Source: Amoebophrya sp. A120 (Eukaryota; Protista; Dinoflagellata). From it: a stretch of 64,000 nucleotides of DNA. A program made the position numbers and the translations under genes. The notes beneath the pieces were generated by a model. That model had not been told where the DNA came from, did not search any database, and saw nothing but the letters and a program-made list of their open reading frames with translations. Below, one piece after another: positions 1 through 64,000 of the stretch; within the stretch, counting starts at the first letter, position 1, and each line of letters opens with the position of its first letter. The stretch covers positions 291,034 to 355,033 of the forward strand of contig CAJINV010000001.1 of assembly GCA_905178155.1 (NCBI GenBank). The letters run 5' to 3'.

Positions 1-2068
1 CAAGAATGTAGGCAAACTTTTTCCCGCAAACGGAATCGCACTGTTGCTCTAACTTCAGGTAGCGCTGCCGCAACAGCTCCTGCTTTTCCATGAAGAGCTG
101 CTTGGCCGCGTCGGTTTGGTGCGGTAAAATGCCGACGCAGGAGCTCCTGTTGGTGCTACCTTTTGAAACACTTCCGGGAGAAGTGGACGATGTTGACGTC
201 GTATTTTCATTGGAAATCTGTCCGCGATCGCTGTATGCCTATGGATTGTAAAAATGTCTGGGTCTGGAAGAATGCTAGACTTGTCATGCAGGTTTTCCAT
301 GACGACCCATGTGAATGGGATCTGATATGGAGGACATAGCATGACAGATTCTGTGAGAGTTCTATCATGCCTATCGTCCTGCATTAGAAACTGCCGCTCG
401 ATTAGGTCAAAAGTGGACAGTTTTTGGTAATCATGCAGCACAGATTTTTACATGATTCAGATTTAGCATGACAAGTTGCTTTGTTCCAGACCAAGACATT
501 TTTGCATTTGATACGCTGGTGTTGACTTTGAAAATGCAATCGAACAATTGCCGCCTCTCTTCCAGTCCCATTTTCTGGACGTTCTCCTGGCATGTTTTCT
601 GACAGTCTATTGTGAGGAAAAATGTCCCCACACCAGAGTCAAGATGGAAAATCTTCGCTCGTTCGTTCGTGTGGATCGGCTCTGCCGACCGGGTAGCCCA
701 TCGCCTCACATACAAATGACCGACGCGAACCCCGTTGCGGGACATACATATGGCCATATGGCCGCACGGAGGGGCCCTAAGCGCTACATACATAGTTCAC
801 CCTAAGCGCCTACCACTTCGGTCGGGACTGAGTCTACCTGGTCCTGGGGGTTCACAGCGCACTAGCCCTCTTGCTAGCATAAACAGATTGGGTTCTACAA
901 ACTGATCTAACTCCTTATGACAGTCAGGCCATCTTAAAGGACAAATCAACCAGCTATGGTTGTTCCGCATGACAAGTTTGCTCTCGTAGTGTAATCCTGT
1001 TTAGCTAGTAGTTCCGAAGCATCACAGACGTAGCATATCATGCTCATCTTAGCATCACAAATTCCCAAACACGAAGGGAAAGTGGCTCTTTTGGGGCGTC
1101 GCATCATCATCATCATCATCATGTAGTGGACACCCGCACCCAGCGCCACAGGTCAAGGATCCCCTCCCCGGGGGGTGGGCGAGGAAGCACTTTCGGCGAC
1201 CTCAACATACAAAAGCCGAGCGCTACCACGGCAAGTCGCCCCAATAAAAGTGCCAACCAGTCGGGAGCTACCCACCACACCTGATCAGTACAGCCCGGCC
1301 TGCTAGCCGAGCGCGACAGCCCAGTATACAGAACGATCCAGGACCCGACCCATTTTACGCCATAAGTATTTGCTCTCACGGAAGAGACGACGCACCCCTT
1401 TGGGCTAAGGGGCGAGACTCTCCCTTAAGCCGCAACCCCACCCGGACAGGGGGGGCTGGACCATTTGTGCCTTCCCTGCGGCCGGCACGGACGAAAAAGG
1501 CAAGTGCGCGGACCGGAGATGCCAAGCGAACCATTGGCCAGTTGTTTGTCACGCTGACTGGCAACCCACCTGGGGCACAGCGACAGCTTAAAGGTTTAGT
1601 TTGTGCGTGGCAGTCTTAGTGCAGCTACTTGACTTATTCTGCAACAGAAGCAAAGGGTGGGAGGGGGGACGGGGATCATAAGCCGGAATCATCATCATCA
1701 TGTAGTGGACACCCGCCCCCAGCGCCACAGGTCAAGGACCCCCTCCCCGGGGGGTGGGCGAGGAAGCACTTTCGGCAACCTCATCATACAAAAGCCGGGC
1801 GCTACCACGGCAAGTCGCCCCAAGAAAAGTACCAACCAGTCGGGAGCTACCCACCACACCTTTTTTTGGCATGAGATTTGCATGACAGCTCTGGGGTGGG
1901 GACGTTTTTAAATATGACACAGTCCTTCTTTGCGTCAAAGAACTCCCAAACCCGGCCGCGCATTTGCTGCGGGCGCGCAGCGTTCAGCGTGCTTTCCAGC
2001 TCAGCGACATCCTTCGGGCGGAAATGCTCCATGATAGTGCGACAGAATAATTCCTTCAAGAACAAGAT
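1..2068 (-). CDS. Hypothetical protein, partial (multi-exon; runs off the window start; 5' exons unresolved)
   Basis: Removing introners 608-1919 and 240-513 gives a continuous frame ...EFFDAKKDC|QKTCQENVQKMGLEERRQLFDCIFKVNTS|AYSDRGQISNENTTS...KQELLRQRYLKLEQQ. Confidence 0.6.
240..513. mobile_element. Introner family A (A1), 274 bp
   Basis: TIR tatggattgtaaaaatgtctgggtctggaa / ttccagaccaagacatttttgcatttgata. TSD not recognisable. Removable as an in-frame GT-AG intron 239-514 on the minus strand. Confidence 0.9.
656..930. mobile_element. Nested insertion inside D1, no TIR
   Basis: Flanked by atctt at 651-655 and 931-935. Its removal restores colinearity with D2/D3. Confidence 0.6.
1102..1861 (-). 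mobile_element. Nested retroposon-like insertion with ~170-bp terminal direct repeats ending in (TGA)n tails
   Basis: 1102-1282 and 1688-1861 are near-identical, and each begins on + with (cat)n. Confidence 0.6.
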
Positions 2069-18200: not shown

Positions 18201-19202
18201 GTTTCCGGTGAGCAAGTCCATTGCGCGCTCCATGATTTTGGTGTGGAACTCCAGCCGGGTCATGTCTTTCTGGAAATCCACGGTCAAGCGGTCCCGGCTG
18301 GTTGGCAATTCGTGCTCGTTGGCCTTGGGTCGCTGGGCTACGAAAATCTCCTTGGCCATGTTCAAACAGTCCTTGGCCTTGTACACGTCGTCCCAGCCGT
18401 ACGCTACCCGGTCGCACTTCGGTAGGTCCGCCTTCGTCTGCGGCTTCGCCTGTTGCCGCAATAGAGCTTTATCGAAAGGAAAAATCCCCCCTCCCCATAT
18501 CAAAACGGAATTTCTGATGCTGGATTTGTGTACACAGATCAGGTTTGTATTGCAGAGAGGCACTGCGGCCAAATCCCCAGGCACGTTAGGGGCGTATAGG
18601 TGTAGTTGTTCAGCATGGCAAGCGGGTCACTTTTAGGGGCAACAGCATGACAGATCGCTTCCATAGTGGGGCGGAAGCTTCTGCCCTTGTCTTCTGGCAA
18701 TACAGATGTGATTTGCGACCTCAAATCAGCAACACAAATTTTCGGAAACATACCATTTCGATATGGGGAGGGGGGATTTTTCCTTACAATAAGCTTCCTC
18801 CGAAGTTTTCAACGGGAAAATCCAGACGTAGTCGCCCAGATATCCAAGAAAAAAACGTTGTAGGTGTAACTTTTTTGGAGGAACAGCATTACAAAGTTGT
18901 CTGGTATGACAGCAAAAACCTGTCATGCGCAGATAGTACTCGAAAACGCCCTTTAGTGGACCCTACGATGCATGCCAAGCATGACAGACGCAATCATCTT
19001 GCATGTTGCGCATCACAAATTTCCACTAACATACAACGTTTTTTCTCTTGGATACCAGGTCGTCGTCGTTCACCACTTCGACCCCCAAAACATTTATCTT
19101 CTCCCGACCGCGCTCGGCTTTCAGCAGCGGCTGGATGTCCCGCTCGTTGCCACTCTGGGAGGGCAGCGGGCTCTTGCCCGCCGGATCCTCCGGGGCCGGC
19201 AT
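15228..19202 (-). CDS. Anoctamin/TMEM16 family channel-scramblase (multi-exon)
   Basis: KDYFGEEMAFFFHW, ERENHKTE, FKVVMVKFFNAMYPFLYVAF, DYMELTVQF, IGAWQSIF and EHIL motifs. Canonical introns plus three introners (A2, B2, G1). Confidence 0.9.
15497..15737. mobile_element. Introner family A (A2), 241 bp
   Basis: Family A TIR; perfect TSD aacta; removal gives LLAFLV|GEHIL. Confidence 0.93.
18470..18791. mobile_element. Introner family B (B2), 322 bp
   Basis: TIR tatcgaaaggaaaaatcccccctccccatatc; perfect TSD agctt; removal gives KTSEEA|LLRQQ. Confidence 0.93.
18841..19054. mobile_element. Introner family G (G1), 214 bp
   Basis: TIR tatccaagaaaaaaacgttgta; TSD ccaga/ccagg; removal gives NDDDLG|DYVWIF. 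Confidence 0.9.
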
Positions 19203-19830: not shown

Positions 19831-20170
19831 ATTCTATGTACTTTCGCACCCTCGTCACTCTATCCTCCGTATTTTTTTGCTTTTACTGTATGGCGTTCTC
19901 AAACGTTACATTCTCAACTGTTACATGAAATTTGTAATGCAAGAATGGCAAAGTGAAAGGGAAAACATTGCGCCTTTTGCATTACAGGTGTGGAGCAGAT
20001 TATAATGCTATCTAGCGCATCGAGAGGTTGTCATGCGGAGAAGGCTTGATCGTGTTAAGAGTGGTAGTGTTTTTGCATGACAAATCATGTAACAGTTGAG
20101 AATGTAACATTTGAGAACGCCATATACTGTCCTCGTCGGATTTCATCACGTTGAAGATTTCAGAGATTGG
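19831..20170 (-). pseudogene. Duplicated Psf3 3' end plus start of UTR (copy 3), carrying introner C1
   Basis: Matches 21941-22300 except for which introner is inserted. Confidence 0.85.
19889..20124. mobile_element. Introner family C (C1), 236 bp
   Basis: TIR tatggcgttctcaaacgttacattctcaactgttaca; perfect TSD tactg. Confidence 0.93.
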
Positions 20171-20974: not shown

Positions 20975-21043
20975 CTCGTCACTCTATCCTCCGTATTTTT
21001 TTGCTCTTACTGTCCTCGTCGGATTTCATCACGTTGAATATTT
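20975..21043 (-). pseudogene. Duplicated Psf3 3' end (copy 2), introner-free
   Basis: Encodes IFNVMKSDEDSKSKKIRRIE* with no insertion. Confidence 0.88.
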
Positions 21044-21730
21044 GGTCATCGGCCTCTCCAACCCGTCCATCCGCGGCCGACCAAATCGGACCGAGATCGC
21101 GATCTCGGGACGATTTGGACAACGGCCTCTCCAACCCGTCCATCCGCGGCCGACCAAATCGGCTCGAGACCGCGATCTTGGGACGATTTGGCCATCGGCC
21201 TCTCCAACCCGTCCACCCGCGGCCGACCAAATCGGCTCGAGATCGCGATCTGGGGACGATTTGGTCATCGGCCTCTCCAACCCGTCCACCCGCGGCCGAC
21301 CAAATCGGCTCGAGGCCGCGATCTCGGGACGATTTGGTCAGCAGCCCCACCAAACCGGCTCGAGAACGCGACCTCACGCCGATTTGGTCGCCCTCTCCAA
21401 CCCGGCCCGAAGTGCCAGAGCCAGACGCCCATCCGAACTGACCCGCCGCCCTCCCGCCTCGTCCCCAACCCGGCCCGGCGTGCCGGGCCCCATCGCTTCC
21501 CGACCAAACCGCCACTCCGGGCCGACTTCGGCCGCTCCGACCTCTGGCCCATCCGCGAGCGACCAAACCGGCTCGAGAACGCCTGCGCCCCCCGGCCAAA
21601 TCGGCTCGAGAACGCGTTCTCGGAGCGGCTTGGCCCGCCGTCCTCCTACCTCCTCCCCAACCCGGCCCGGAGTGCCAGAGGCGTCGCCCACGCGATCGCG
21701 TTCGCGCGCCCGTTTGATCCGCGGGAAAGG
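21041..21730. repeat. GC-rich 73-bp tandem repeat, each unit holding a ~45-bp palindrome; decays distally
   Basis: tttgg recurs at 21041, 21114, 21187, 21260 and 21333. Palindrome: ccaaatcg-gaccgagatcgcgatctcggga-cgatttgg. Confidence 0.85.
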
Positions 21731-21967
21731 CGCTGCCACAAAAGCTGCGCCAACCCACGATGGATCGCTGGCCCGCTTTTGTTCTTGCGACCGGCGGGCG
21801 CGAAAGCTGCCAAATATTGCGACCCTGGGGAAAGTTTCAGGGTGTGCACTGCACTGTTCGTGAAATTATCCGAGACGCGAAATACGCACCAAGTACAAAG
21901 AGCTTACGCGGCCGCTTATTTAACAGGTGCCCAAGCTGTAATTCTATGTACTTTCGCACCCTCGACG

Positions 21968-23097
21968 TCACTCTATCCTCCGTATTTTTTTGCTCTTGCT
22001 ATCAAAAGTAAAAATCCCTGGATGTCTGGAAACTTGTGATGCTGGGTGGCGTCTCATGATGAGGCTACAAATCCTGACTCAGCATGACAAGTTTCTGAGC
22101 TCCTAGGTGTTGCCTGTTCTGCATGACAAACTGCGCTTCTGCATCACAGAAAAACGGAGCTCTTAGGTAACGTGCATGACAGATGTAAGAGTCATGCCAG
22201 ACAAGCATGACAAACATGAATTCTTCCAGACCCAGACATTTTTACAGTTGATACTTACTGTCCTCGTCGGATTTCATCACGTTGAATATTTCAGTGATGG
22301 CCAGTTCTGCCTCGCGAATCCCGAAAAACAGGTTTTCCTCCACGTACGTGAGCATTTGCACGTACAATGGATCCACGTGCTCCGCCACGCCCTTGCGCCC
22401 GAGCATGGTGATCGTCGCATTCCATCTTGCTTTCGCGGCGCTGAAGAGCTGGTTGCGCAGCCGCGGCCACGCCATTCGTTCCACATCCAGGGGAAGCTGC
22501 ACGTTGTATCGATGGAACCTGAAAATGAAGTATTAATTTGTATCAGTTACGACAACATGCTGCATTAAGTCTTAGTTCCTCAAAAATCAACGAAGCAACC
22601 AATAACCTATCTATGCCCCACCGCAACTAAGTTCTTGTGACGTAGATGAAAACATATCAATCTATCAATTCACAAACACACTGCTTCTATCTATACACGA
22701 ACGCCATCCTTGACCCGATTTCGAAGTAGAAGGGCGAAAAATTCCGCAGGTGGACTTTGGACGGGTCACTCGCGAGACTGTACACGAGCGAGTCGCAGTA
22801 CTGGTTCGGCGCTTCGAATTGTACTGTCCCCTTGATTTGCCCCGTCGCGGCGTCCGTCTGCGTCAGTCCGATGAGCGCTTGCGCGAGCCAGAAAGGTAGC
22901 TTCAGCTTCGTCCCCGCGGGCAAGGTGAGCTCTTCCGCACTCCCGGTGGTCCGTTGCGCCATGCCGACGCCTTCTAGGAGGTGTGCCGCATGGTACAGAG
23001 GGTGATTCGTTTCGCAGGGAATCAACTCCTCCTCGCTTATTAGCTCCTCCAGATCCCAGTAGTCGCGGCAGGGCGAGTACAAGGAATGCTGCGCCAT
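21968..23097 (-). CDS. PSF3: GINS complex subunit Psf3
   Basis: YWDLEELISEE, GTKLKLPFWLA and LASDPSKVHL..FSPFYFEIG are typical of Psf3. Last exon interrupted by A3. Confidence 0.85.
22000..22253. mobile_element. Introner family A (A3), 254 bp
   Basis: Family A TIR; TSD cttgc/cttac; highly similar to A4 in reverse orientation. Confidence 0.93.
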
Positions 23098-24355
23098 TTT
23101 CTTGGAACCAATTGCTAAAGGATCAGAGACGGTAGCATGAGTGTAGGAATCAAGCGCAGCTAGGGTTACTTACATCAATCTCCATCTTAACTGCTTTCGG
23201 AGAAATAACAGCGAGGACGGGCCGGCTCCGAATCTTGTTCAGGTCAGAACCGGACGAGATGCAAACCACAAACTTTCAATCCATCCAGGTGTCGTGGCAT
23301 GTTGCAGTTTTCATACGTCACCATCGAGGCTTGTTGTTGTTGACAGCTTTTGATATTTGAAGACAGCAACAGTGCGGCAGCTATTTTCATTTGTTTCAAC
23401 ACACCGGGATGCACTTACTGCAAGGTAAGTCACCTACACGACGAGCACAATCTTCAATGCGAACACGAGAAACACGACTGCTGGAGGTTCGTTGATTGCA
23501 GCTGTCTCCTCATTATTTGGCTCCAAACCCCAGGAGGTGTGACCACGAACACGGTGCGGGGGAGGTGACCTTTTTGTACTTCTCATATTGCAACAATGTG
23601 TACTACTCAATACAGCCTGATCAGCTTTCCGTACCGCGCGTCTTCATCAAGGTACATCTATGTTGTCTTGTTTCAATTCATCATCCAACTTCGGAGTGCC
23701 GAAGCACCAAGAAGCCATGCGGTGGAACAAGCCCAGATGGAACCAGACCGGCAGGCCAGCGCGTAGACGTCTAGCCGAACCCGAAGGCTTCGCTTGGTCC
23801 TGGTTCGGTTGGGCTACGGAAGATATGAAAAGCAATAAACAAAATTTGACAAAACTTGCCTTTAATACTCGCAGTGGATGTGGAAAAAAGACCACCCACT
23901 GATAGAGAAAGACTGGCACTCCGCACGCGTTGACGTAGAAGTTCTACTGGTACAAAACAAGATTGGAAAAAAATAGCGTTTGCGCCTGCAAGTGGCAGAT
24001 TGAGAGTACTACTTCTTACGCCGTTCACTAATTCTAATTTTGGGTTTGTGGATGTTGACGTTCTTTTTCCATTCTACAAATAAGGTGCTCATGCTGTCTT
24101 TTGATATGACTCATACCCTCACAGCGAAAGTAAAAATGTCCATCGTAATGACACCATGATTGACATTGATTCTCAATGGCAGTGTTAAAAGTAGTGACTC
24201 ACCAGATTGACTGGTGGGGGTTTCATTTGTTCCCACAAAAATCACCACGAATGGCGACGACGCAGCGCTACTTATGTGAGAACGAGGATATTAACAGGCA
24301 CATCACAAGAACAATGACTTGTCTCCCAAACGCCTCCCTCCCTGCCTTGTGCTAC

Positions 24356-34765: not shown

Positions 34766-35247
34766 TAATAGGTACTTAAGTACTCCACACCACTACGACC
34801 ACGTACAGCACTCGTACTAATACATAAGCACCACGCAATCGAAAGTCGCGAAAGCCGGATGCTCTGGCTCACTCAAAAATCAAAGCGAAAAAACTGCCGT
34901 CTCCATCTCCTCTCTCTACTACGACGTAGTACTGCGGAAAACTCACTCTACGAAAATTTACCAGCCGTGTACTGCTCGATGACCCTCCTGAACGACCGAC
35001 GCCCGAACATAGCCAAGTACGTACAAGGTAGAGGTCGATCTTTTTGTATTCACGTCATGTGCGTAGAGAATCTGCACACCGGGATAAAAGAGCGTCGTAA
35101 GATCTGGTGAAGCATCCATTTGTTTCTTGGAAATCAGTCTGTTTTTGGCGGCGCGATTTTTTTCCAAGAAAAAAACACATTCGCCCGTCATTCAAAGTCA
35201 AGTCGCTGTATTTTTCGTGTAGTCGGCCTTCTTCTTTTCATCTAGCT

Positions 35248-38200
35248 TTATACGCAGCAAGATCGTTGCTCAGTTTTGGAGCTGCCGCAGATGCCACCTT
35301 CCGACCGACCGAGTTTCTCGTTCAGCTTTGCCCGAACTTCGTCCTCGGTAATGCCCGGCTTTTCTAGTCTCCAGTCGATCTGCGCTTTGATCAGCTCCCC
35401 CATGATCGGCCCCTTCCCCACTTCGAAGTCCTTTCGCAGCTTGTCCCCCGGAAACATCGGAGTCCAGGTCCAGCAGGCGTCCAATCCGTGTTTGTAAATC
35501 TGCTCTAGCAGTGCGTCCGTCTGTTCCTCAATCTTTGTTTCCTCTTTCGCTTGCTGTTCGGTCCCTACGCTCTTCGCGGCAAGCAGCTTCGTCAGTGTCG
35601 CGGCCGATGTCTCGACGGTGCTGTTGTCTTGTTCCTGCTCTTCAGATGTTGATTTAATATTTTGCGTCGATTCTATCCGTTCCGCGAGGCGCAACTTTGC
35701 GACACGCACCGCCTCGGCGAGGAAAAGGCAAAATTTCCAGGTTTCCTTCCGTTCCCGCATCGCCGTACCCAAGCGAACAAATCGCTGCGTAGTTTCAGCG
35801 ACCTGCTCAGAAGTGTTTTTCTCATCAATCCTCTCGGCCGCTTCTGCCTCCAATTCTGGTAGAAACACAGTTAGCGCGGTCCGGGCCAGGGCCGCCGCCG
35901 TTTCGCTGATTGCTTTCTTCAAGACCAAGTTTTTCCACAGCATGGCGTAGACCGCATCCACCTGCTTCTTCCCTTCGGTGGTTTTGCAGTTGCCGAAACT
36001 TATCAACAGCGCAGCAAGCCGGACGGTTGCGATAGTTTCCGAGGAGATTTGATTATTGTTACTAGTGCTCTTCGAAGTGGATGAAGATGATACCGATGCT
36101 TTATTTCTTTTCACCTCTTCTTGCAAACGCTTTTCCGCGACATCCGTTGTGATGTAGCCGACGAGCTGCCACCAGTGCGGCCTTGGCAAGCTCCAGGCCA
36201 CGTCCCTGTATCAACTGTAAAAATGTCTGGGTCTGGAAGAATTCATGTCTGTCATGCTTGTCTGGCATGACTCTTGAATCTGTCATGCACGTTACCCAAG
36301 AGCTCCGTTTTTCTGTGATGCAGAGGCGCAGTTTGTCATGCAGAATAAGCAACACCTAGGAGCTCAGAAACTTGTCATGCTGAGCCAGCATTCGTAGCCC
36401 CATCATGAGACGCCACCCAGCATCACAGGTTTCCAGACCCAGACATTTTTGCAGTTGATACCCTGGACGGCGGCACGAAGTCCTTCCAGCTCCGCGACGC
36501 GGACCTCGCGGGCGACTATCAAAATGAAAAATCCCCCCACCCCATATCAAAACGGAAATTTGTGACGCTGATTTGGGGCCACAAATCAGCTCTGTATTGC
36601 AGAGAGGCATTGCGGCCAGGCCCCCAGGCTAGGTAGAGGCGCATGTGTCTAGCTATTCAGCATGGCAAACGATTCCCCCTTAGACCCAACAGCATGACAA
36701 ATCGCTTCCATAATGGGGCGGAAGCTTCTGCCCTTGTCTTCTTGCAAGACAGATGTGATTTGTGACCTCAAATCCGCAACACAAATTTTTCTAAACTTGC
36801 CTTTCCAATATGGGGAGGGGGGATTTTTCCTCTCAATAGCGACGCTGCCTTCTTCGTGGGTGGGGACGTGCTGGCCTGCTTCTCGTCGTCCGCACGACCG
36901 GAAGAACTCACGGCCGTTGGCGTCGACTCGTCGCCGCCTGTTGTACCAGAAGGTTTTATGCTCGGCAGAAGGACCTTGTTGTCCTCCGCGCCATCCACGA
37001 CCACCAGCGGCACGGATTTCGCCAAAAAGATCGGCTCCAGACAGCCCGTGGACAAGAAGTACTGCAGGGCCCGCACCGGCGAGCGCCCGTGCTTCATGAT
37101 TTTCTCCATCTCCGTGCCCAGACGCTCCGCCGACACGCGCCGGTCCGCCAACGCAGCCTGCACTTTCGGTTTCAGCATGGCTTGCAAGATCGCGGGGTCC
37201 ATATCGAAGTCGTAGCGGCACGCGAAGCGGACCACGCGCAGGACCCGCAAAGGGTCGTCCAGAAAGGTGATTTCCGGGTTCAGAGGGGTGCGGATGAAGC
37301 CGTTGCTTAAATCTTCGACGCCCTTGTTCGTGAAATCTTCGACAGATTCCGTGTGTAGATTGTAAAACAGACTGTTGATCGTCAAGTCGCGGCGGTGCGC
37401 GTCCTCCGACGGGGTGCCGATCTCGACCACCGGAATCCGACCGGTTTCCTCGGCGTACGTCTCGGTCCGCAGGTTCGTCACGTCCACTATCAACAGTAAA
37501 AGTGTCTGGGTCTGGAAGAATGCAACTTGTCATGCTAAATCTGAAGCATGCAAAAATCTGCGTTGCCTGACTACCAAAAGTCGTCCAGTTTTGACCAAGT
37601 CGGGAGGGAGTTTCTCACGCAGGATAGGCATTAGAACGGTCTCGCAGAATCTGTCATGCTAGGTCCTGCATTCCAGACCTCATGGGTCATGGAAAAGCAG
37701 CATGACAAATCGCGCATTCTTCCAGACCCAGACATTTTTACATTTGATATCCACAGACACGCCGCAAATGCGAAAGCACGCGGTGGCCAAGTGCTTCGAT
37801 TGCTCCGGGTTTTTGCGGACATTGCCGACGGAGGAAATCTGATTATAGAAAATTTGTATTTACGCAAAAAGTTGCAGCATTCGAATGTCTATCATGCGAT
37901 CTAGCAAGACGTGCATGAAACATAAAGTAGACACAGGCAGTGCAACAATGTGTGAACTTTTTTCAAGTCGGTTGTTGCTCGGGAGGTCGTGTACAGCCAC
38001 GTAGTTGTCGCGCAAAAAAACCCTTACCTTCAGCTGGTTGGCGTAGCTCGGCGCGTTACCCTCATTCGCCGCGGCTTGCGCGTGCACCACTTTTGCGTAG
38101 GCTTCGACTTTGTCGGCGAACTCCTCGCCGGTGCCGTCATCGACCGCAATGTCTAGGTCGTCCGACGCGATATCCAACAGCTTGTCCCGGACCCATCCCC

Positions 38201-43034: not shown

Positions 43035-46000
43035 TCACAACTGCAACATATTAACTCTAAACTTCCCAGAGAAGGAACACTCCGTCTCAACCAGAATCTT
43101 GACTACATTCCAATTTCCCGTGCTCAAGAGCAGCCTCGTCAAGTGCGAGCTACATTGTTCATTTCCTGAGAATGATGCTCCCGATCTACTTGGTGTTCTT
43201 GACAAAAGATCTACAATCGACCTGTAGGGTGAGCACTGGTGAATAGGTGCGCCCAAATATCCCACAGAAAAAAGCTGGCAGGGCATATTTCTTTGTAATG
43301 CAAAAATAAATACACAGAAAAATCTGCCATGGGCGGCCTCATAGCATGCTGTTTAGGATACGCAATACAGATTTTCTTGTGTATTTATTTTTGCAATACA
43401 AATGTGACCTGCCAGCTTTTTTCTGTGGGATACCAAAGTGTTGAGCCAGTCGAGTTTGCAGAGCGCATTCTCCCTATCAAACGTAAAAATGTCTGGGTCT
43501 AGAAGAATGCAACTTGTCATACTAAATCTGGAGCATGCAAAAATCAGTGTTGCATGATTACCAAAAGTCGTCCAGTTTTGACCAAGTCGCGAGGGCGTTT
43601 TTCATGCAGGATAGGCATGAGAGAGATCGCACAGAATCTGTCATGCTAGGTCCTGCATTCCAGACCTCATGGGTCATGGAAAAGCTGCATGACAGAACGC
43701 GCATTCTTCCAGACCCAGACATTTTTACATTCCATACTCCCCGGCGATCAGCATCTCCTTCCACGAGGGTAGTTGAGGCTTTTGTTTCACATTCACTGGG
43801 TCTACATTTATTGGAGTGGAAGACAATTTGTTTTCACTACGTAGTCGATGGGAGGTAATCCCATCGACAATCTTCCAAGGACGCATGTTGTGGGGGTACC
43901 AGAGGGCGACCTGACCCCAGTCTATGTAGGGTGACGCAATGGTGTTTATTTTCACCGAAGATACAGTGCTGGTGGTCCCTTGCATGTTCCTATCATTCAT
44001 CTCATTTTTCATTTCTTCGCGTCTCCCCACCCTCGTCCGCAAGGGTGTTGGACCGATTGAAAACGGCGGCTCGAGATGGTCGCTGAGCGACACGGGTACG
44101 CAACCGGAAAAGAACGTTTCATACAGACGCCCGGTGTATGCCGCGAGACCGCGCGGCACCAGGCAGTACTTGCACGTGTCCCCGAGGATCTTTTGATGAA
44201 TCCTCGTTCCCATCGGCTGTCCGACATGCAGACCGCCGCTCCCGCTGGTCGAGGCGTGAAGCGCCGCGTGCTGCATGGTCACTCCCTCATACGCCAGCGC
44301 GGAAGTAGCCGCAGTTGGCGTCAGAGCCGCTCTTGAAGATGTGCTGGGAGAGGTTGCTGGTGTCCTCGAATTCATCAGTTTCTCGCGGTTTCGTTCTACT
44401 TTTCGGCGTGTTTTCTTGACTGTGGCTACGTAGTTATCCCATTTTGCAGTCTTGAACTGCAGTTCTTCCACCAGCTCAGACCTCGTCGTTTCGTTCACGG
44501 AAACGTACGCGTTGTTGACTCTGTCACCGAGTTGCCAACCGTGTCTCCCGGTGCGTGCGCGCTGCCCGTGCCAGCAGACAAGCTGCGTCCGATTGGGCCA
44601 AACGTAGTTGCGGTGCTTCAAGTACGCATTCGCCCGGTTATTGTCGACGACCGACGGGACAATGATCGTTGAACCAGCGGATAGAGGAGTTTTTGGTTTT
44701 GGTTTTTTCTCCTGCTTGCTTGCAAGAACATCTTGTTCAACACCAACGCTTATAATTTCTTCATCCCTTCTATTCGCCTTCCCCTCGTCCCCGGTGCGAC
44801 GGTCGTAGCACAAGTCAGTCTCGCAATGAGACAGGTAGTCAAAGAAGCTCTGTGGTGCCAGTGAAACGGTGGTATTCGTTTCCGTCGGCGGCAGCTGCTC
44901 TGCTGCGTCTGCTTTGACAAGCCCTGGCTTGGTGTTATCCAAACTGCTACGAAGAGTTCTTGAAGGTACAAGTACATCATCGACTTGCGGGGGCACAGTA
45001 GCAGCTTCCATTTTCGTTTCGTCTCCTTCGACCCTTTCCAGCAGATACTGTGCCGCGCTTTCGATAATCTGCACGGTTTCCACCCTCGCCGCTTGCAGCA
45101 CCGGTCTGCTCTCCACGGCCAAAATAGTTGCGTCCGACAGCCAGGAGTACCCTTTCAGCCGCGGATCCCCAAATAACGCGGTCCACGCACTGGACGAGAA
45201 CACCACCACCGTTTTGTTTAGTTCCGTGAAAATTTTCTCGGTCTTCCCGCGCCGTCGGAACGCTTTTTCCATTTGCAGTCCGCTGAACCGACTGTGCACG
45301 TCGATCGCAAAGTTCTCCGCGCGATCCAAAAACTCCGCGAGGGCGCCGGCATAGTTGACCGGGAGGTCAAACTCTGTAGTTCCACCGGCGTGACCGCCGG
45401 GAATCGATACCGGCCTCGCAGGGCGAAAAACCGCGGCGTGCCAGGTAGCTTTGGCGCATTCGAGACGCGTTGTCGTGCGTGGACGAGCCTTCATTTTGCT
45501 CGTGGTCCTGTGGGGACCGGGACGGTTCTGTCTTGATGTCCGCCCCGTGGAGTTCCTCGACTGTTCAACGAAGACCTCCTGCGACCGTGGCCGCGCCCGA
45601 AGGATTTGGTTTGCGATGAGGTTCAGTTTTTCCGCGAAGGTTGGAATTGTGTAGAGACGGTCGAAAACATGGACGATAGCAGTATTCTTGCCTTTGTTCT
45701 CAACGCGCTTTATTTCTCCGTCCGGTAGTTTGTTCGCAGACCCAGATCGAACTTCGCCCAACAGCTCGACTCCGCGCAGCCGGACGCGTGTCAGGAACTC
45801 TCTTACCGCGGAATACAGCGCGAAAACGGAAGGTCGCTTCGGCCTCGCCCAGCGCCGAGACACCGCAGCCCGCACGTCTTTCACTTGTTGTGCTGTATGC
45901 AAGAGTTCGCGATGCACGTCGTAGAAGGGGAGAAAGTAGTAGTCTGCTTCCGCCGGGTCCGACACCGTCGTTCCAAATTTATTGTTCACGAGGAACCGAT

Positions 46001-47841: not shown

Positions 47842-48697
47842 TTAGGGCGGAAAAATCGGCAAATAGCATCACTTTTGCCAGCGCACTTTTTGGGGGGGTA
47901 AAAGATTTTTTTTGTTGGGGGCGCAACATCTTGGAAGCCGACTCGCCTCGCGTGTCACTTCATCTGTTCCACCGGAAACATGATGGCTGAGCTTTGGAAA
48001 TGCCGCAACACCAGGACCAGAAGCAGGCCACAGCGCCTTCGTTCTGTGCCTTGTCGTTCAGATGGCCGGACGCTTTGTCGTGGGCCCGCTCTTCGAAAAG
48101 TGGCCGGGCCGCCTCCGTGACCGGGGCTTGACGAGGCCCTTCGCCCAGAAAAGGAGGCCCGGCCAGGGGGGGGTGGTCAGGGGGTTGCATTTTTGCCCCT
48201 CCCGGACAACCCTCCCGGGTACCCCTTCCGGGTACCCTTTCGGTAGCCTATGCCGACCCCCTAATCCCCATTGAAAACTGCCGATTTTGCGTGCCCCAAA
48301 ATGGTAGCCCAGAGGCAGCCCAAGCGGACCCCCTTACACCCCCCCTTCGGCACCCCCCCCGGAAGCACTTGACTGCTGGCGCGTCCGCCTTCTCAATATC
48401 CGGCCGGAGAGGGAAGATGAGAAGATATCTGGGCGCGTCCGGAACTGGATGTGGGAGAGGGGGCGCGGCTTCCCGCGCCAGAGGGCCGCAGGCCTGTGCA
48501 ACTGCAACAAAGTGCTGTGGTTTTATTTCAAAAAGGGGGGGGCCGGATGGCGGACCGTGGCAACGAAGAGTGGCGCCAGCATCTAAATGGCCAACAGGAA
48601 AAAAGCAGTAGCGACACCCCCAACAGCCATAATTTTTTTGCCCCCCCAAAATGCGCGCTCACAAAAATGATGCTATTTGCCGATTTTTCCGCCCTAA
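47842..48697. mobile_element. Intergenic non-autonomous TIR element (MITE-like), 856 bp
   Basis: ~60-bp TIR ttagggcggaaaaatcggcaaatagcatca...; TSD aacga at 47837-47841 and 48698-48702. Confidence 0.88.
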
Positions 48698-49070: not shown

Positions 49071-50958
49071 TCAGCTGCCGTCCTTTGGTTGGTTGTCAAC
49101 CATGAGCTTCCAGCCGTCCCCGCCCCGCGAAAAGTTCCGCTGCAGGTCCTCCAACTCCTTGGCCCAGCCCAGCTCCTCAGCGAGTTCGCGCACAACGTCG
49201 TCACAGCTGCCTGATAGAAACAGGTCCCGGAAGTTTTTTTCGTGTTCGAACTGGAAACCGCCGGTGCCAAAGTCCTTGCAGGTCCCGACCATCTCGTTAT
49301 TGATCAAAACCCGGGGGGTCTTCAGGTCGCAGTGCGTGATGAGCCGGTTGAAGGGCGCCACCTGCAGGCTGGTACCGAGCACGAGCACGCAGTCGGCAGC
49401 TTTGAAGTCCGCCTTCCGCAGCTGGTGAAAGCGGTCGGGCAGATTTTCGCCGAAAAAGACAATGTCCGGCTTCACCAGCCCATTGCAGGATTCCTCCACG
49501 GTCTTGAAGGCCTCGGGGTTATCGTCCTCCTCCGCATCGGGCGAAGTAGATGTCGGGGGGTTGTTTTCGTCTGTTTGCTGCGCGACAAATTCGAGGTTGC
49601 GGATTCGCTTTTTCACGATGGCGCTACACCTGTATGTACCGATAAATTTTATGAAAATGAAAAAAATGAAAATGATGTATACTCACATCAACTGGTGCCT
49701 CCAAACGAGAAGTTCGGCTCGATGTTTTTTTCGTCGCCAAAATTCCCAAAGAATTATATCAACCGTGTTCAACAACATTCTCGACGATTCGCAAAATCCT
49801 ATCCCTACCTTGGCACTATGCCCTTTTCGATATCTTCCCTCCATTTTGTCAGCGACACCTGCGCTCCGCACTCCACACAGTGCACGTCGGCGAAGGACCC
49901 GTGCGCGTAGACCACTTTTTCGTCCGGCAACCCCGCCTGCTTTTCCAGGGTGTCGATGTTCTGCGTGTACACGCGGCGCAGCAGGTCTTTCTGCAGCAGG
50001 AGCTGCAAGAAAAAGTGCGTGACCGTGGGCGCGAATTTCCCGGGTAGCATTTCCAAGGCCCGCTCGCGGAAAGGCTCCGGGTTTTGCTTAAAGTAGCTGA
50101 TGTCAAACAGGGACTCGGGTCGGGACATGCCGTGCTCGCGCCGCAGCTTTTCGTAAAGCCCGTTCTTGCTCCGAAAATCCGGAATCCCGGCGCTGACGGA
50201 AATCCCCGCGCCCGTCATCGCGATATCGTGAGAAAAAAATCCCCCCTCCCCATATTGAAAAGGACACCTGTGATGCTGGATTTGCGTACAGAAATCTACT
50301 TGTATTGCTAGAAGTCCAAGAAGCACAGTTGTGGCCTCAATTTCAGGCAATTTGTCATACTGCTCTCCAGTTCCAGTTGCATCCTGTCATGCTGAAGATG
50401 CAAGGCTTTCTTTCCCACGCAAGCGAGCACTCCAGTCCGCATCTTTTGCTTTCTAGCATGGCAACATGATTTGTGGCCACAAATCATGCTACACAAATCT
50501 CCGTTTTAGTATGGGCAGAAGGGAATTTTCCTTTTGATACACGACCAGATCCTTCCATAGCCCCTTGCGGATCTTGTCGGCCAGGGTCTTCAGCGATATG
50601 TCGTCGTTAAACACGGCCGCGCGTTCCTCCTCCGGAATATCAAATGTAAAAATGTCTGGGTCTGGAAGAATGCAAGTTTGTCATGCTTGTCTCACATGAC
50701 TCCTAAATTTGTCATGCACATTACCCAAGACCCCCATTTTTCTGTCATGCAGAAACGCAGTTTGTCATGCAGAATAGGCAACACCAAGAAGCTCAGAAAC
50801 TTGTCATGCTGAGCCAGCACTTGTAGCCTCCTCATGATACGCCGCCCAGCGTTAGCGTTACAAGTTTCCAGACCCAGACATTTTTGCATTTGATACGGAA
50901 TCGTGTCATACCAGGAGGTGTCCTCTGGTTTTTCAAGTATGAGAAAACTATCGAACAT
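49071..50958 (-). CDS. SIR2: Class I sirtuin (SIRT2/Hst2-like NAD-dependent deacylase)
   Basis: VVMTGAGISVSAGIPDFRS, YTQNIDTLE, AHGSF, VKPDIVFFGE, LGTSLQVAPF and RVLIN motifs. Confidence 0.95.
50224..50539. mobile_element. Introner family B (B1), 316 bp
   Basis: Family B TIR; TSD cgcga/cacga; removal gives DLVV|MTGAG. Confidence 0.9.
50638..50895. mobile_element. Introner family A (A7), 258 bp
   Basis: Family A TIR; perfect TSD cggaa. Confidence 0.95.
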
Positions 50959-56801: not shown

Positions 56802-58438
56802 CTACTGTTCCATTGCCGCAGTGGACGCGGCCGCCGCACCCCTGAGATTGGAGGTTTTCGTCTTCACCAGGTGCTTGGGCTTCGAGGACCCAGTTGCTCC
56901 CGCGGCGGCAGTGTCTTCTGCGGACTCCACCCCGTCCTCTAGTGGAGTTTCCGGTACCGGGCTCGCCTCTTTTTGCACGACGGCCTCGAGCGTTGTTGTA
57001 TCTTCCCCCCTTGTATCAAATGTAAAAATGTCTGGGTCTGGAAGGATGTAACTTGTGATGCGCATTTCAGAACACACAAAAATCTCTGATGCATGGGCAG
57101 CAAAAGCTGCTCACTTTCTGTCACCAAAATGGGGGATTTGTCATGCGGAATCGGCATCGCGGAAGCTTCTCGAAACCTGTGATGCTAGAGCTTCCATGCC
57201 AGACCTCCTGCGTCATGCAGAAACAGCATGACTCTTCCAGACCCAGACATTTTTACATTTGATACGCTGCAGTAGTCCCTTCGATGGTGACGAAGGACGA
57301 AGCGGACCTGCTGCCGACCGAGCCTCTCGGTACCCGAAAACTGTTGTGCAGCTGCGCGTCGTATCCTGTGCAAAAGTATCGTACTCGTAGTAATCGCAGT
57401 CATGCATTACAAATTTCCATCCGAAGGTAAAACAGCATGACAGATTTGATTTGTCATGCTGACCGAATTTGTAATGCGATTTCTACTAGTACGATTCTTT
57501 TGCAACGCATACGGCGGAGGAAGTGGCAGAAGTTGCGGTTTTCTTCATGGACTGCGCAATGTACCGATATCCTATGTAAAAACGTACCCACACCATAGTA
57601 AGTTGTCATGCAAATCTGCATGCTTAAAATGTTTCTCATGCGGAGCCCCATGAGAAGCATTTTCTAGTGGTGTTTTGCAATTTGTCATGCTCCAGTCAGC
57701 ATGGTATGCTAGATCTGTGATGCTGCTGAGCTAGCTCAAACAGCATTACACTACGAATCCAAATTTGTCATGCAAAACAGCCAAAACTTGTGGATTTGTC
57801 TAGCCGATTCCCCAACTTGACTATGGTGTGGGTACGTTTTTACTCAGGATAACCGAATTTGCGTAAACACGTCCGTCTGCGAAAAGCACGCGAGTGTCAA
57901 CTCGAACCAGAGTAGTAGCATCCCGAAAACCAGTAACACTGCACTGCTTCCAGAAAGCTTCGGATACGCTTGCTGTTGTGAATTTTTTTTTATGAATAAT
58001 AAAACGGGAGATGCAGTACTTGCTTCTTTTGGCTACATTGAGCACTACGTGCGAAAGACTTGTTCCTGCAAAAAAAGTAGAAACAAGTATAAGTTGATCA
58101 AGATGCAATCCAATTAGTACCGGAAGTGGCACGACATCGTAGCCCTCCGCGACGTTTGCGGCAGCGACAAACAGTCCGGCGGAACTGGTTTGTTGAAACG
58201 GCTTTGTGACTGCATTGGCGTTAGCAGAAGAGGACGACACTGCTGATGAAGCAAAAGGGTTCGCCACGTGGCTGCTTGTTCCTGCAACAACAAAGGAAGA
58301 TGTGGCTTTCGCTGCTGTCGGCGACTGCAGCTCCACAAGTTTCCGCTCGCGCTCCCGCATTGCGAGCGAATTCGTCATTTCCCCATAGGCTTTGACCGTC
58401 ATTTTGTATAGGTTTCTGGTTGAAATTCGAGTGGTCAA
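56802..58438 (-). CDS. Hypothetical membrane protein with three clustered introners (5' end uncertain)
   Basis: Frame continuous after removals: FTQIR|YIAQSMKKTATSATSSA|AQLHNSF...EGTTAA|GEDTTTLE. Confidence 0.65.
57014..57264. mobile_element. Introner family A (A8), 251 bp
   Basis: Family A TIR; TSD ccttg/cgctg (2 mismatches); now GT-AG compatible. Confidence 0.92.
57362..57511. mobile_element. Introner family F (F4), 150 bp
   Basis: Family F TIR; TSD cgtcg/cggcg; reverse orientation relative to F2. Confidence 0.9.
57568..57851. mobile_element. Introner family D (D2), 284 bp
   Basis: TIR tatcct.(t/a)gtaaaaacgtacccacaccatagt; perfect TSD accga. Confidence 0.93.
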
Positions 58439-59526: not shown

Positions 59527-61276
59527 TTAAATTCCACCCTTCGTCATTCCCTTCATGCCTTTTTCCGCCATCTTGGCGGCGCCCTTCACCGCGGCATTCA
59601 CATTCACCGTGGACGGGGCGGTACCGGCAGCCGGGGCTTGGGCCATCATGGTCTTCTTGACCGGAGCAGCGGAGCCGCTACCGAGCAGGTCCTCGACGAA
59701 CTTGCTCACGTAGACGCTGAAATCATTCAGGTGCTTGTCCAGATTCGCGAAGAAGCCGGTCAGCGCGGTGGTTTCCGGAAACCCGTACAGGAACACGTAA
59801 AAGTAGGCGATCAGGGAGAGGAGCACGACCAGAAGACTGATGGAGTACAGCGCGACCCCGTTTCCCAGGAAGGCAAAGTACGACTTTCTCGCGACCGCAG
59901 TAGTTTGTTCCTGTGGAAGTTGTAGGGATGATCCGGTGGTTTGGATTTTCAGCAAAGGAAGAACGTTTTCCTTCATCATCTTCATGAGAGCAGTAATATG
60001 TCTGTAGCTTTATTATCACGCTTGCTTCTAATATCTATGGTTTATGCATAGATACTTCTTAATGCCAGGGAAGCAACACTTGCAATAGATTCTATACCTC
60101 CACGACCGGCTCTTCCTCCTCCGATGCTGGCGCAGCCGCGGGTGCTGCCTTCATTGGTGCTACCTTCATGGCGGACTATCAAAAGCAAAAACGTCCCCAC
60201 CCCGTAGTCAGGTTGGTAAATCTGCAACACAAGTCTCCAAGTCTTAGGAGTTGCGCATGACAAGTTTCCATCTGCAGTGTAGTGCTGGTTAGCAAGGGAA
60301 GCCGCATTGTTCACAGCATTACAAACGCCAAAACACGATTGCAAATGAAATGCCTGTCATGGAGATGGGCATTTACAAATCTAACTCCTCGTCTTCCATT
60401 CCTGTCATTGCGCATTTGCATGACAACTATGGGGAGTTGGGACGTTTTTACACAGGATACGGACTTCATTGCCTTCTTCATTGCTGAGGCAGCTTTCTTT
60501 GCGACCGGCTCCGACATCTTCTTCATAGCGGTCACTGGAGCGGCCTTCATCTGTAATATTTGTTTCTTGTTGTATATCGCATGATTTTTTTTCCAGTACT
60601 TATTTTACTGCCCGTCTAGTTGAGGATAATTCCCCGCCTCATGCAAATCGATTTTAATTTTCTACTTTCATTCTAAGTTTTGGAGTGGTCCTCATAATGT
60701 CGACTTAGGATGTTGAACAAGTTGTAAATATCCTTGATATAATACAGCCTTCTTCATGCTGGTCGTTGTATGAATTGCAAAAATGTCTGGGTCTGGGAGA
60801 TTGCGAGATTTGTCATGCAAGCCTGGCATGACTCTGAGCTCTGTGTTGCACGGCCGCGAAGAGCTCCTCCCCCCCGTCATGCAAAAACGCGGTTTGTCAT
60901 GCGGAGTACACAACTCAGAACCATGAAAAAAACTTGCCATGCTTGGCAGCGCATCATAGTGAGTTCACTGTTCTCTTTCTTGCATCACAAGTTTCCAGAC
61001 CCAGACATATTTGCCAGGCATACGTTGCAGCCTCGGACGACTTCTTCATCGCTTCGGAAGCGGTTTTATGAACTGCAAAACTATCGCACTCGTAGTAATT
61101 GCATCTATGCATGACAAATCTCTTTCTCAAGGTGAGTCAGCATTACAAATTTAATCTGTAACCACGCTGGGCTAATTTGTAATGCAATTTATACTAGTAC
61201 GATGCTTTTGCATTGCATAAGTTTTCTTCATCGACTTCATCGCCGTAGAGCTGGAAGCTTTGCTGGTGCTCGGCAT
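59527..61276 (-). CDS. Met-Lys-repeat basic protein with a transmembrane helix (~220 aa, 6 exons)
   Basis: Reconstructed across F5, A9, GT-AG intron 60551-60745, D3 and GT-AG intron 59911-60097. Confidence 0.75.
60177..60459. mobile_element. Introner family D (D3), 283 bp
   Basis: Family D TIR; perfect TSD cggac. Confidence 0.9.
60769..61022. mobile_element. Introner family A (A9), 254 bp
   Basis: Family A TIR; perfect TSD cgttg. Confidence 0.92.
61067..61219. mobile_element. Introner family F (F5), 153 bp
   Basis: Family F TIR; TSD ggttt/agttt. Confidence 0.88.
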
Positions 61277-62548: not shown

Positions 62549-64000
62549 CTAGTCGGTGGAAAAATCAATCGCGTGTCGAGTGTACCACTCTGCGAGCAAA
62601 TCGGCAGGAATCCATTCCTTTGCGCCGCGATTTGTAAAGAGGCTGAGCTCTTTGTCGGCCTCGGCAACCGTCATCACGACCAGCTTCAACGGCTCGGGTC
62701 GTTCCCCTGGCACGACCTCTAGGTGGTCTCCGAACATTTCTGTTTCAACTTGCGGTGTCGAGTTTCGAAAATCATCCGCAGTGGTGTTCTTCTTATTACC
62801 TGCACGGCTGGGGAGCTTCCTGCTGTTGGCGACCAGGCGAACCGCCGCCCGGACGGCGTCTCTCACCTGTGCTACGTCCCCCTCGTCGACGGCCAGTATG
62901 TGTAGAAGAAAAAAAGTGTGTAAGTGTAAATTTGTGTTGCAGAAAATGCAAAACTGTTACACTTGTCATGCTGGATATGCATCAAAGGCGATCTTCGTAC
63001 GTGTTTTCAAGTACTAGCTACGCATGACAGGCTTTCTGTGTAATGCAGAGCAAACTTGTGATGCTATTCCTTGAAGAAACTTGTACTATACACAGTTTTC
63101 TTCTTGCGTAGTATGCCGCGAATGTTCAATCGGTCGCTCCACTTTTCACAACGCATTAGCATGTGCATCTGGGTGTGGAAAAGCCGACGCCACCAGCCCC
63201 TCAGGCCCGCGCCGAGCAATTCAAACCGCTCGCGGAAATTCTCGCGCTGAAACTCCGATCGGTCCGTCACGTCGACCACATCGGCCACCACCAAAACCGG
63301 CAGGCGCCCCGGGCCGAGAGCGTGCTCGAACTTCGCGACGGCGGTCGCATTCGCCTCGCGTTGGCTCCAACCGAACCAGCCCTTCCACCCGTGTGGAAGC
63401 CGGCCCGCGTTTTTGAAGGCGTACTCCTTCGCGACGTCCCACATGCGCCCACTCTCTCCCTCGCCCGTGCACTCGTTCATTCGAAAAGAAAGGGGCGCCG
63501 CCGCGACAACGGCCGGGCGCGCGTCTGTAGTCAGGTTGTGCCATTGTTTTTGGGCGTCTGCCATCTGCACCCGCTCACCACCAAAGAAGTCGATGCCGTT
63601 TTATGCAAATAAAAATGAACTAGTGTTACTTACTACAGTTCTTACACACGACTGTGAGGCAGCAAGACACACAAGAACCTCTGTCATGCCCGAAGTGCTT
63701 GATGCGCATCTCTTTCCATGCTGGCCAGGGGCAATTTCACTTATGACCTCCGCATTGGTTGGTATATTGCAAGTTTGCTTTGGCACAGCGCAAATTTGTG
63801 TTGCTAAGTGTGACTGCAGCACAGCTCTTTGTTCGCTTTCCCTTTGATACCTTGCGCTGCAAAAACTTTGTCCCAGCGAGCTGGGCGTTCGTGAACAGGA
63901 TCGCAGACACCACATGATAAATCGCGACACCGACGAGCGACCAGGGAGTTGGAAACAGTAGGTCGTCGTCTTTGCGCCTCACCAGCTCTAGGGCCCGATC
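62549..64000 (-). CDS. Hypothetical protein, partial (5' end beyond window; 3' end uncertain)
   Basis: Frame joins across two introners: FLQRK|GIDFFGGERV and NIRGI|LAVDEGDV. Confidence 0.65.
62901..63110. mobile_element. Introner family G (G2), 210 bp, decayed TIR
   Basis: Perfect TSD gtatg; interior aligns to the reverse complement of G1. Confidence 0.85.
63602..63849. mobile_element. Old, decayed introner (family I), 248 bp
   Basis: TAT...ATA ends, weak TIR, TSD cgttt/ccttg; frame restored on removal. Confidence 0.7.

What the first reader, a model, noticed from the sequence alone, without database searches (positions are those of the whole stretch)
22000..36460. Introners work in either orientation relative to transcription
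Seen: all host genes are on the minus strand, yet sister copies are inverted relative to each other: A3 vs A4/A7, A1 vs A5/A6, F2 vs F4, D2 vs D3, G1 vs G2. Inference: no strand-specific branch point or pyrimidine tract is needed. The symmetric TIR stem, or a bidirectional motif, must define the intron.
Basis: partly seen in the sequence, partly recalled or inferred. Interest (0 to 1): 0.8.

Follow-up and report, generated by a model that had tools for sequence, protein, structure and literature searches.

The report
Two-way introners with directional cut signals
Small transposon copies, likely the published introners of the marine parasite Amoebophrya, sit in genes facing either way and are cleanly missing from transcript contigs in both directions, and their mirror-image ends are conserved differently at the start and end of the intron, which suggests a loosened spliceosome likely reads them like a splice donor.

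Summary
Observation confirmed. The window holds 28 inverted-repeat elements with 5-nt target duplications, matching the published Amoebophrya A120 introners. Sister copies are inverted (A3 vs A4: 92.5% over 255 nt) inside minus-strand genes. Probable-RNA contigs lack both orientations of two families, each time element+5 nt; the named A3/A4 pair has only indirect support. In 420 kb of related contigs plus the window, all ten families occur both ways, 117 of 117 testable copies need element+5 removed to keep frame, and neither GT nor AG is enriched at the junctions. The 'purely symmetric' inference is only partly right. The cut is lopsided (1 nt before, 4 nt after the stem), and terminal changes are directional: among 270 clean copies, 0/0/6 at repeat positions 1/2/3 at the intron start against 6/2/0 at the end. 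That fits an N-U-A-Y donor and an invariant A seven bases before the 3' cut (post hoc). Either-way introners are in print for Polarella and Aureococcus; I found no such statement for Amoebophrya. This scan has noted orientation independence and the fixed register in other windows of this genome.

The parts
21995..22258 (.). A3: family-A element 22000-22253 with 5-nt duplications (one mismatch), near the 3' end of a Psf3 gene; orientation class 1; its transcript-3' repeat is the degenerate copy
   Evidence: removal only indirect (record 1 stops at 22254 with 29 further letters; spliced form equals the empty paralogue)
21966..23101 (-). Host gene of A3: GINS subunit Psf3-like, canonical intron 22519-22696
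   Evidence: PF22466; RNA contig pieces; translation
24610..24768 (.). F1: family-F element 24615-24763, class opposite to F3-F5
   Evidence: skipped 24610-24763 in X4 contig
26794..26962 (.). F2: family-F element 26799-26957, same class as F1
   Evidence: skipped 26794-26957 in X4 contig
29872..30050 (.). F3: family-F element 29877-30045, inverted relative to F1/F2 in the same TTL-domain gene
   Evidence: TTL frame open only after removal; joint not displayed; DNA-like run X5 spans it
30111..30356 (.). C2: family-C element 30116-30351 in the TTL domain
   Evidence: X4 contig stops at 30352
23576..33106 (-). Tubulin-tyrosine-ligase-like host gene carrying F1, F2, F3, C2 (approximate limits)
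   Evidence: PF03133; X4 contigs
36204..36465 (.). A4: family-A element 36209-36460, inverted sister of A3 (class 2)
229..518 (.). A1: family-A element 234-513 (class 1), boundaries set by hand
37483..37754 (.). A5: family-A element 37488-37749, inverted sister of A1
43470..43741 (.). A6: family-A element 43475-43736, inverted sister of A1
50633..50900 (.). A7: family-A element 50638-50895, inverted sister of A3, in a Sir2 gene
57009..57269 (.). A8: family-A element 57014-57264 (class 2); duplication mismatches force the cut to after position 4 or 5
   Evidence: joint 57008>57265 in 4 of 4 runs
57357..57516 (.). F4: family-F element 57362-57511, inverted relative to F1/F2
   Evidence: joint 57356>57512 in 4 of 4 runs
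57563..57856 (.). G1: family-G element 57568-57851
   Evidence: joint 57562>57852 in 4 of 4 runs
60172..60464 (.). G2: family-G element 60177-60459, inverted relative to G1
   Evidence: joint 60171>60460 in 4 of 4 runs
60764..61027 (.). A9: family-A element 60769-61022 (class 2)
   Evidence: removal inferred from exact contig arithmetic, 224 = 224 nt
61062..61224 (.). F5: family-F element 61067-61219; its mismatch forces the cut to at or before position 4
   Evidence: joint 61062>61221 in 4 of 4 runs
18836..19059 (.). D1: family-D element 18841-19054
62896..63115 (.). D2: family-D element 62901-63110 (hand-set), inverted relative to D1
   Evidence: joint 62894>63110 in 3 of 4 runs, but the contigs carry 3-8 other letters and may come from a paralogue
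20977..21043 (.). Empty paralogous copy of the A3 insertion site; shows that the 5-nt repeat is a target duplication
   Evidence: identical (0 of 67 differences) to the A3-removed sequence

Best explanation
These are non-autonomous inverted-repeat DNA transposons that insert facing either way and are removed from RNA with one copy of their 5-nt duplication, likely by the cell's own loosened spliceosome reading signals that the mirror-image ends supply in both directions. Shown: inverted sisters, 5-nt target duplication (empty paralogue), precise removal in both orientations for families F and G, no GT or AG enrichment. Inferred from four mismatched duplications, assuming one register: the intron starts 1 nt before the repeat and ends 4 nt after it. 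Inferred from tolerated changes: the 5' end is read as N-U-A-Y (a GT-AY donor with +1 relaxed), and an A at -7 from the 3' cut is held fixed. Predicted, untested: the repeat stem brings the ends together and the 3' cut is set by distance rather than by AG.
For: Removal equals element+5 in all 9 element joints seen (2, 7) and in A9 by arithmetic, in contigs that also drop GT-AG introns, while DNA-like run X5 keeps F3 and a canonical intron. Register: A8 and the element at 63602 keep upstream position 4, F5 drops upstream position 5. Orientation ratios 83/65, 19/10, 9/18, 12/14, 12/9, 7/4, 4/5, 4/4, 2/1, 1/2, all p>0.1. Frame test 117 of 117; retention would break 114 of 117. G at intron +1 107 of 310 (flanks 86-117 of 310), AG at the end 26 of 310. 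Terminal changes among 270 clean copies 0/0/6 (5') vs 6/2/0 (3'), counted by hand from the listing; permutation p 0.0035 on all 280 rows, about 12 changes expected per free site. Five of five RNA-supported canonical introns begin GTA, four of five GTAY. U6 with an unchanged ACAGAGA box lies in the window. Both A3 and A4 introns fold as end-to-end stems (z -3.2, -7.7).
Against: No lariat, branch or spliceosome data. The directional pattern rests on 14 changes, was noticed and re-tested on largely the same elements, so it is post hoc; strands of the outside loci are model calls and their splicing is unobserved. Exceptions: window G0 (608-1919) has TGT at its 5' end; L076 has CAT at its 5' end and no duplication; two misregistered 3/5-duplication rows add 5' changes. 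Only one element (F5) bounds the register from above. The bases before the -7 A vary between families and do not match a UACUAAC-like branch consensus (consensus recalled). RNA status of X1-X4 is the tool's guess; they are 2 samples of one study; contigs cannot measure efficiency. U1 was not found in A120 (PMC7789003, section 10).
Confidence: 0.6

Rival explanations
1. A separate, non-spliceosomal system (structure-recognising endonuclease plus ligase, as suspected for euglenid nonconventional introns) cuts the repeat stem at staggered sites; the conserved terminal bases are its recognition site.
For: No GT/AG requirement; stable end-to-end stems; U1 apparently absent (PMC7789003, section 10); euglenid stem introns leave as circles, not lariats (PMC11282704, section 6).
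Against: The constrained 5' bases coincide with +2 to +4 of this organism's canonical donors; pairing at positions 4-7 is often broken (unpaired in 51-127 of 285 copies) and C-A mismatches at position 3 are tolerated.
Confidence: 0.22
2. The shared internal motif TGTnATGC / GCATnACA, present in both directions, is the intron-defining signal (branch point or splicing-factor site).
For: 12.2 per kb inside elements vs 1.0 per kb outside; in 283 of 285 copies; both directions in 201; its sense form contains U-n-A-C.
Against: 40 of 285 copies have no sense-strand copy; median distance to the 3' cut ranges from 39 to 218 nt by family and orientation; sense and antisense counts are about equal (439 vs 476), as expected of a DNA-level transposase site.
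Confidence: 0.1
3. The missing elements reflect DNA-level absence (strain polymorphism or excision) or paralogous transcripts, not splicing.
For: Contigs across D2 and the 63602 element carry other letters; A3's joined form equals an empty paralogue; run kind is a guess.
Against: The same contigs remove GT-AG introns and show 0 other letters over kilobases; DNA-like X5 keeps elements and introns; two contigs are mosaics of the two duplication copies at a fixed offset, which an empty allele need not give (A8, F5).
Confidence: 0.05

Closest known systems
Amoebophrya sp. A120 introner elements (Farhat et al. 2021, PMC7789003; seen: abstract, sections 10, 11, 12, 16, passages, supplement legends by term search; figures not held)
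   Same: Inverted repeats starting TAT + about 7 variable nt + A-run, 3-5-nt direct repeats, about 240 nt, non-canonical ends, co-oriented genes, many families.
   Different: [quoted passage not shown] Orientation neutrality, a single register and directional constraint on the terminal bases were not in what I read.
Polarella glacialis introner classes and Aureococcus anophagefferens introners (bioRxiv 10.1101/2020.10.14.339549, passages; Huff et al. 2016 not held)
   Same: [quoted passage not shown]
   Different: There G[TCA] donors and AG acceptors are recruited and the passage reports a bias to one orientation in the simple two-way classes; here neither GT nor AG is enriched and no bias was detected.
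Euglenid nonconventional introns and Fritillaria non-canonical introns (review PMC11282704, section 6; PMC13326754, passages)
   Same: Transposon-like, non-GT-AG introns with end-pairing repeats and duplications; Fritillaria uses a modified spliceosome.
   Different: Different end motifs and offsets; euglenid introns leave as circles; mechanism here untested.
Giardia/Trichomonas/Spironucleus introns with branch point fused to the 3' splice site (PMC6679479, passages)
   Same: Precedent for a branch A at an invariant short distance from the 3' cut.
   Different: Those have a full branch consensus and AG, and are not transposons; the -7 A here is only a candidate.

Membership tests
Amoebophrya A120 introner elements (Farhat 2021) | Terminal inverted repeats starting TAT, seven variable nt, then at least three A | tested here: met
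   (positions 1-3 and 11-13 in 285 copies)
Amoebophrya A120 introner elements (Farhat 2021) | Direct repeat of 3-5 nt over the exon-intron boundary | tested here: met
   5-nt duplication, perfect in 20 of 28 window elements; empty paralogue
Amoebophrya A120 introner elements (Farhat 2021) | Removed from RNA with non-GT-AG ends | tested here: met
   9 joints in probable-RNA contigs; under the inferred register only 1 of 28 (A8) reads GT..AG
Amoebophrya A120 introner elements (Farhat 2021) | Repeated, multi-copy families | tested here: met
   10 families of 3-165 copies in window plus loci
Amoebophrya A120 introner elements (Farhat 2021) | Occurs in the A120 genome; match to the published family table | not testable with these tools
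   No genome handle; organism inferred from the repeat motif and gene layout, and named in unchecked scan notes
Aureococcus/Polarella-type canonical introners | Canonical donor and AG acceptor from element end plus duplication | tested here: not met
   G at +1 107 of 310, AG 26 of 310, at flank background
Spliceosomal (U2-type) intron | Lariat with branch adenosine; dependence on U2/U5/U6 | not testable with these tools
   Only contigs covered the host genes; raw-read runs X9, X10 did not
Spliceosomal (U2-type) intron | Donor-like constraint at intron +2 to +4 | tested here: inconclusive
   0/0/6 vs 6/2/0 changes, p 0.0035, post hoc, 14 events
Euglenid-type nonconventional intron | Excision as circles without lariat | not testable with these tools
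   no suitable reads

The most novel reading that the evidence does not exclude
The triplet TAT...ATA at the transposon ends doubles as a complete splicing code: read forward it is an N-U-A-Y donor, read from the other end its first A is the branch adenosine, seven bases before a 3' cut set by a ruler and the repeat stem. A U1-less spliceosome would then remove any member of any family, in either orientation and at any target sequence, making transposition into exons nearly free.
Probability: 0.25. Interest if true: 0.85.

Novelty: new variant of a known kind. Interest (0 to 1): 0.45.

Why it matters
How Amoebophrya removes tens of thousands of non-GT-AG introns without a detectable U1 is an open question in the cited paper. 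Orientation neutrality confines the signals to what reads alike from both ends, and the directional tolerance of changes names three bases (+2 U, +3 A, -7 A) to test by lariat sequencing or by one genome-wide count. It also explains how these elements spread so freely: unlike Aureococcus and Polarella introners, they seem to need neither the right orientation nor a particular target sequence. The elements themselves are published, and either-way introners are known elsewhere, which limits surprise.

Tried and rejected
No whole genome for the window and the outside contigs could not be extended, so there is no genome-wide ratio. No RNA holder on record was listed; raw RNA runs X9 and X10 did not cover the host genes (87 partial reads on one repeat end; 0 reads) and are no test. 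Including DNA-like run X5 filled the joint table with cross-element matches (184 rows hidden), so joints for A3, F3 and C2 were not displayed; A1, A2, A4-A7, B1-B3, D1, H1, K1, J1, G0 and C1 were never laid with RNA. No match in viral contigs. An apparent GT enrichment in the window (15 of 28) vanished in the larger set. De novo prediction of canonical introns (40 candidates) was too noisy to give a donor or branch consensus. Global identities are inflated by repeats and gaps and were not used for orientation. No 3'-specific conservation in repeat positions 4-30. No Pfam hit in open frames inside J1 or G0 (3 frames tried), so no transposase was found. Literature: searches found no statement on introner orientation in Amoebophrya; subscription papers (Huff 2016, Roy 2023 final version), figures and bioRxiv supplements were not seen and may bear on this.
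Full report
What is there. The window is eukaryotic, with long minus-strand reading frames interrupted by 150-330-nt inserts. Scans for inverted repeats flanked by direct repeats gave 22 elements automatically; J1 came and five more (A1, G0, B3, D2, L1) were bounded by hand, 28 in all. Nearly all begin TAT, have about seven variable bases and an A-run, end ATA, and are flanked by a 5-nt duplication, perfect in 20 of 28. An empty paralogous copy of the A3 site at 20977-21043 is identical over 67 nt to the sequence with A3 and one duplication copy removed, so the repeat is a target duplication. This anatomy matches the description of Amoebophrya A120 introner elements (PMC7789003, section 11); the organism is inferred, as no genome is held.

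Observation. A3 (22000-22253) is the reverse complement of A4 (92.5% over 255 nt) and A7 (85.4% over 260 nt). With 32 nt trimmed from each end, inverted alignments beat same-strand ones for A3/A4 (319 vs 21), A3/A7 (247 vs 21), A1/A5 (200 vs 26), A1/A6 (198 vs 26), F1/F4 (97 vs 27), F2/F4 (50 vs 25), the D pair (72 vs 18) and the G pair (53 vs 22); shuffle maxima were 17-30. Host genes are on the minus strand by Pfam, by canonical introns in RNA contigs and by a codon model (19 of 22 minus, 3 undecided). C1 and J1 are not in coding sequence as far as I could see; B3's orientation is ambiguous.

Are both orientations removed? Run X4 (RNA by the tool's guess) has one 5.4-kb contig that skips F1 (24610-24763), F2 (26794-26957) and a GT-AG intron with no other differences, while DNA-like run X5 runs through that intron and through F3. 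In 56600-64000, joints across A8, F4, G1, G2 and F5 appear in 4 of 4 runs, across D2 in 3 of 4 and across the element at 63602 in 2 of 4 (2 samples, one study). A9 is removed by exact arithmetic (224 nt between pieces). Each skip is element plus 5 nt. So F1/F2 against F4/F5, and G1 against G2, show removal in both orientations. For family A the direct evidence covers one class only (A8, A9); for A3 the X4 contig stops at 22254, the element's edge, and continues 29 letters, which fits the spliced form but equally the empty paralogue, and retention of A3 would give a plausible C-terminus too. The D2 contigs carry other letters and may be paralogous. Raw-read runs gave no test.

Larger sample. 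A pattern scan returned 139 loci (420,429 nt) from another assembly's contigs with the same families and no overlap with the window. The detector found 323 further elements (13 false hits in 373 kb of reversed sequence). Strand calls from the codon model agreed in 399 of 403 within-locus pairs. Ten families of three or more copies all occur both ways: 83/65, 19/10, 9/18, 12/14, 12/9, 7/4, 4/5, 4/4, 2/1, 1/2, none with p below 0.1; 37 of 322 members had no strand call. Of 285 stranded members, 117 had frames callable independently on both flanks, and all 117 (57 and 60 by orientation) require removing element+5 (mod 3); retention would break 114. The duplications have the base composition of exon flanks: G at intron +1 in 107 of 310, AG at the end in 26 of 310. 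Splicing of these outside copies is inferred, not observed.

The inference about symmetry. Where the two duplication copies differ, the contigs show which is kept: A8 and the 63602 element keep upstream position 4, F4 keeps position 3, and F5 takes position 5 from the downstream copy. One register fits all: the intron starts 1 nt before the repeat and ends 4 nt after it. Only F5 bounds this from above. The terminal triplet is different. With detection anchored on positions 11-28 so that terminal bases were free, 270 copies with a 4/5 or 5/5 duplication at exact offset showed 14 changes: at the 5' end 0, 0 and 6 at positions 1, 2, 3 (all TAT to TAC), at the 3' end 6, 2 and 0 (counted by hand from the listing). 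Adding the 10 rows with 3/5 duplications, two of them misregistered, the locus-level permutation p is 0.0035; duplication mismatches suggest about 12 changes per free site. The same substitution types occur on the sense strand in both groups, so strand-biased mutation is not an obvious cause. Six C-A mismatches at position 3 show that base identity, not pairing, matters there. This reads as an N-U-A-Y donor, like the GTA(Y) starts of the canonical introns, plus a fixed A at -7 from the 3' cut. The pattern is post hoc and small, and G0 (TGT start) and L076 are exceptions.

Mechanism. Best reading (0.6): a transposase of unknown family inserts the elements without regard to direction; a relaxed spliceosome recognises whichever repeat comes first as a donor, the stem likely brings the ends together, and the 3' cut is set by distance. 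The window's U6 has a standard ACAGAGA box; a passage in PMC13326754 notes that lower m6A there favours U at +4. A branch A at a short invariant distance has precedent in Giardia and Trichomonas (PMC6679479), but the bases around the -7 A are not conserved across families, so this step stays speculative (0.25). Rivals: a non-spliceosomal stem-cutting system (0.22), the shared internal motif TGTnATGC as the signal (0.1; 12.2 vs 1.0 per kb, but no fixed distance and absent from the sense strand in 40 of 285 copies), and artefact (0.05).

Relation to what is known. The elements are the published A120 introners. Creation of introns in either orientation is in print for Polarella glacialis and Aureococcus (bioRxiv 10.1101/2020.10.14.339549), where canonical-type sites are recruited, and Gozashti 2022 allowed for opposite-orientation insertion in its search. 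In Farhat 2021 every 'orientation' hit concerns genes; searches found no statement for Amoebophrya introners, but figures, bioRxiv supplements and subscription papers were not seen. Unreviewed scan notes report orientation independence, the fixed register and the internal motif in other windows of this genome; a word search for the donor/branch reading returned nothing. I had reached the orientation, register and motif readings, and the notes are not independent support.

Verdict. Observation confirmed; interpretation partly supported; a new variant property of a known element class; interest 0.45.

Noticed in passing
window 19831-20167, 20977-21043, 21941-22298: The 3' end of the Psf3 gene exists in three nearby copies: one with A3, one empty, and one with a family-C element inserted 2 nt from the A3 site, i.e. 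two independent insertions at nearly the same paralogous position.
   Followed up: partly
window 608-1919: Family-G element enlarged to 1312 nt by two nested inserts, one bounded by 174-nt direct repeats (1109-1282, 1688-1861); a related insert is in L018. The host frame is open only if all 1317 nt are removed.
   Followed up: partly
window 47842-48697: 856-nt element with about 60-nt inverted repeats starting TTAGG (the A25-type start in Farhat 2021) and a 5-nt duplication, apparently outside coding sequence; no relatives in the loci, no Pfam hit.
   Followed up: partly
all element families; window and loci: Internal motif TGTnATGC (n rarely T) at 12.2 per kb inside elements of unrelated families against 1.0 per kb outside; likely a transposase or host-factor site.
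   Followed up: partly
window 30800-32105: Cluster of U6 snRNA (31169-31274), a tRNA (31730-31799) and SRP RNA (31883-32040) on the minus strand inside an intron of the TTL-domain gene, with a repeated 64-nt upstream element (31282-31345, 32043-32105) that may be a Pol III promoter.
   Followed up: partly
window 33295-34780 and 21040-21650: Tandem arrays of a 58-nt unit (about 23 copies) and a 73-nt unit between genes.
   Followed up: no
loci L015, L002, L051, L077; window 234-239: Short insertions between the transcript-3' repeat end and the duplication are 3 or 6 nt long, as expected if they end up in the exon under a fixed +4 cut.
   Followed up: partly
window 30111-30115 and 57009-57013: In two elements the downstream duplication copy differs from the upstream copy in a way that creates AG at the 3' cut; A8 thereby reads as a GT-AG intron. 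No such trend in the larger set.
   Followed up: yes
window 22222-22253, run X9: 87 raw RNA reads of a run that covers no host gene here match only a family-A repeat end with other flanks: a family-A element is transcribed at another locus or in another strain.
   Followed up: no
window 62550-63970: RNA contigs over this gene carry 3-8 other letters, suggesting a close paralogue elsewhere.
   Followed up: no
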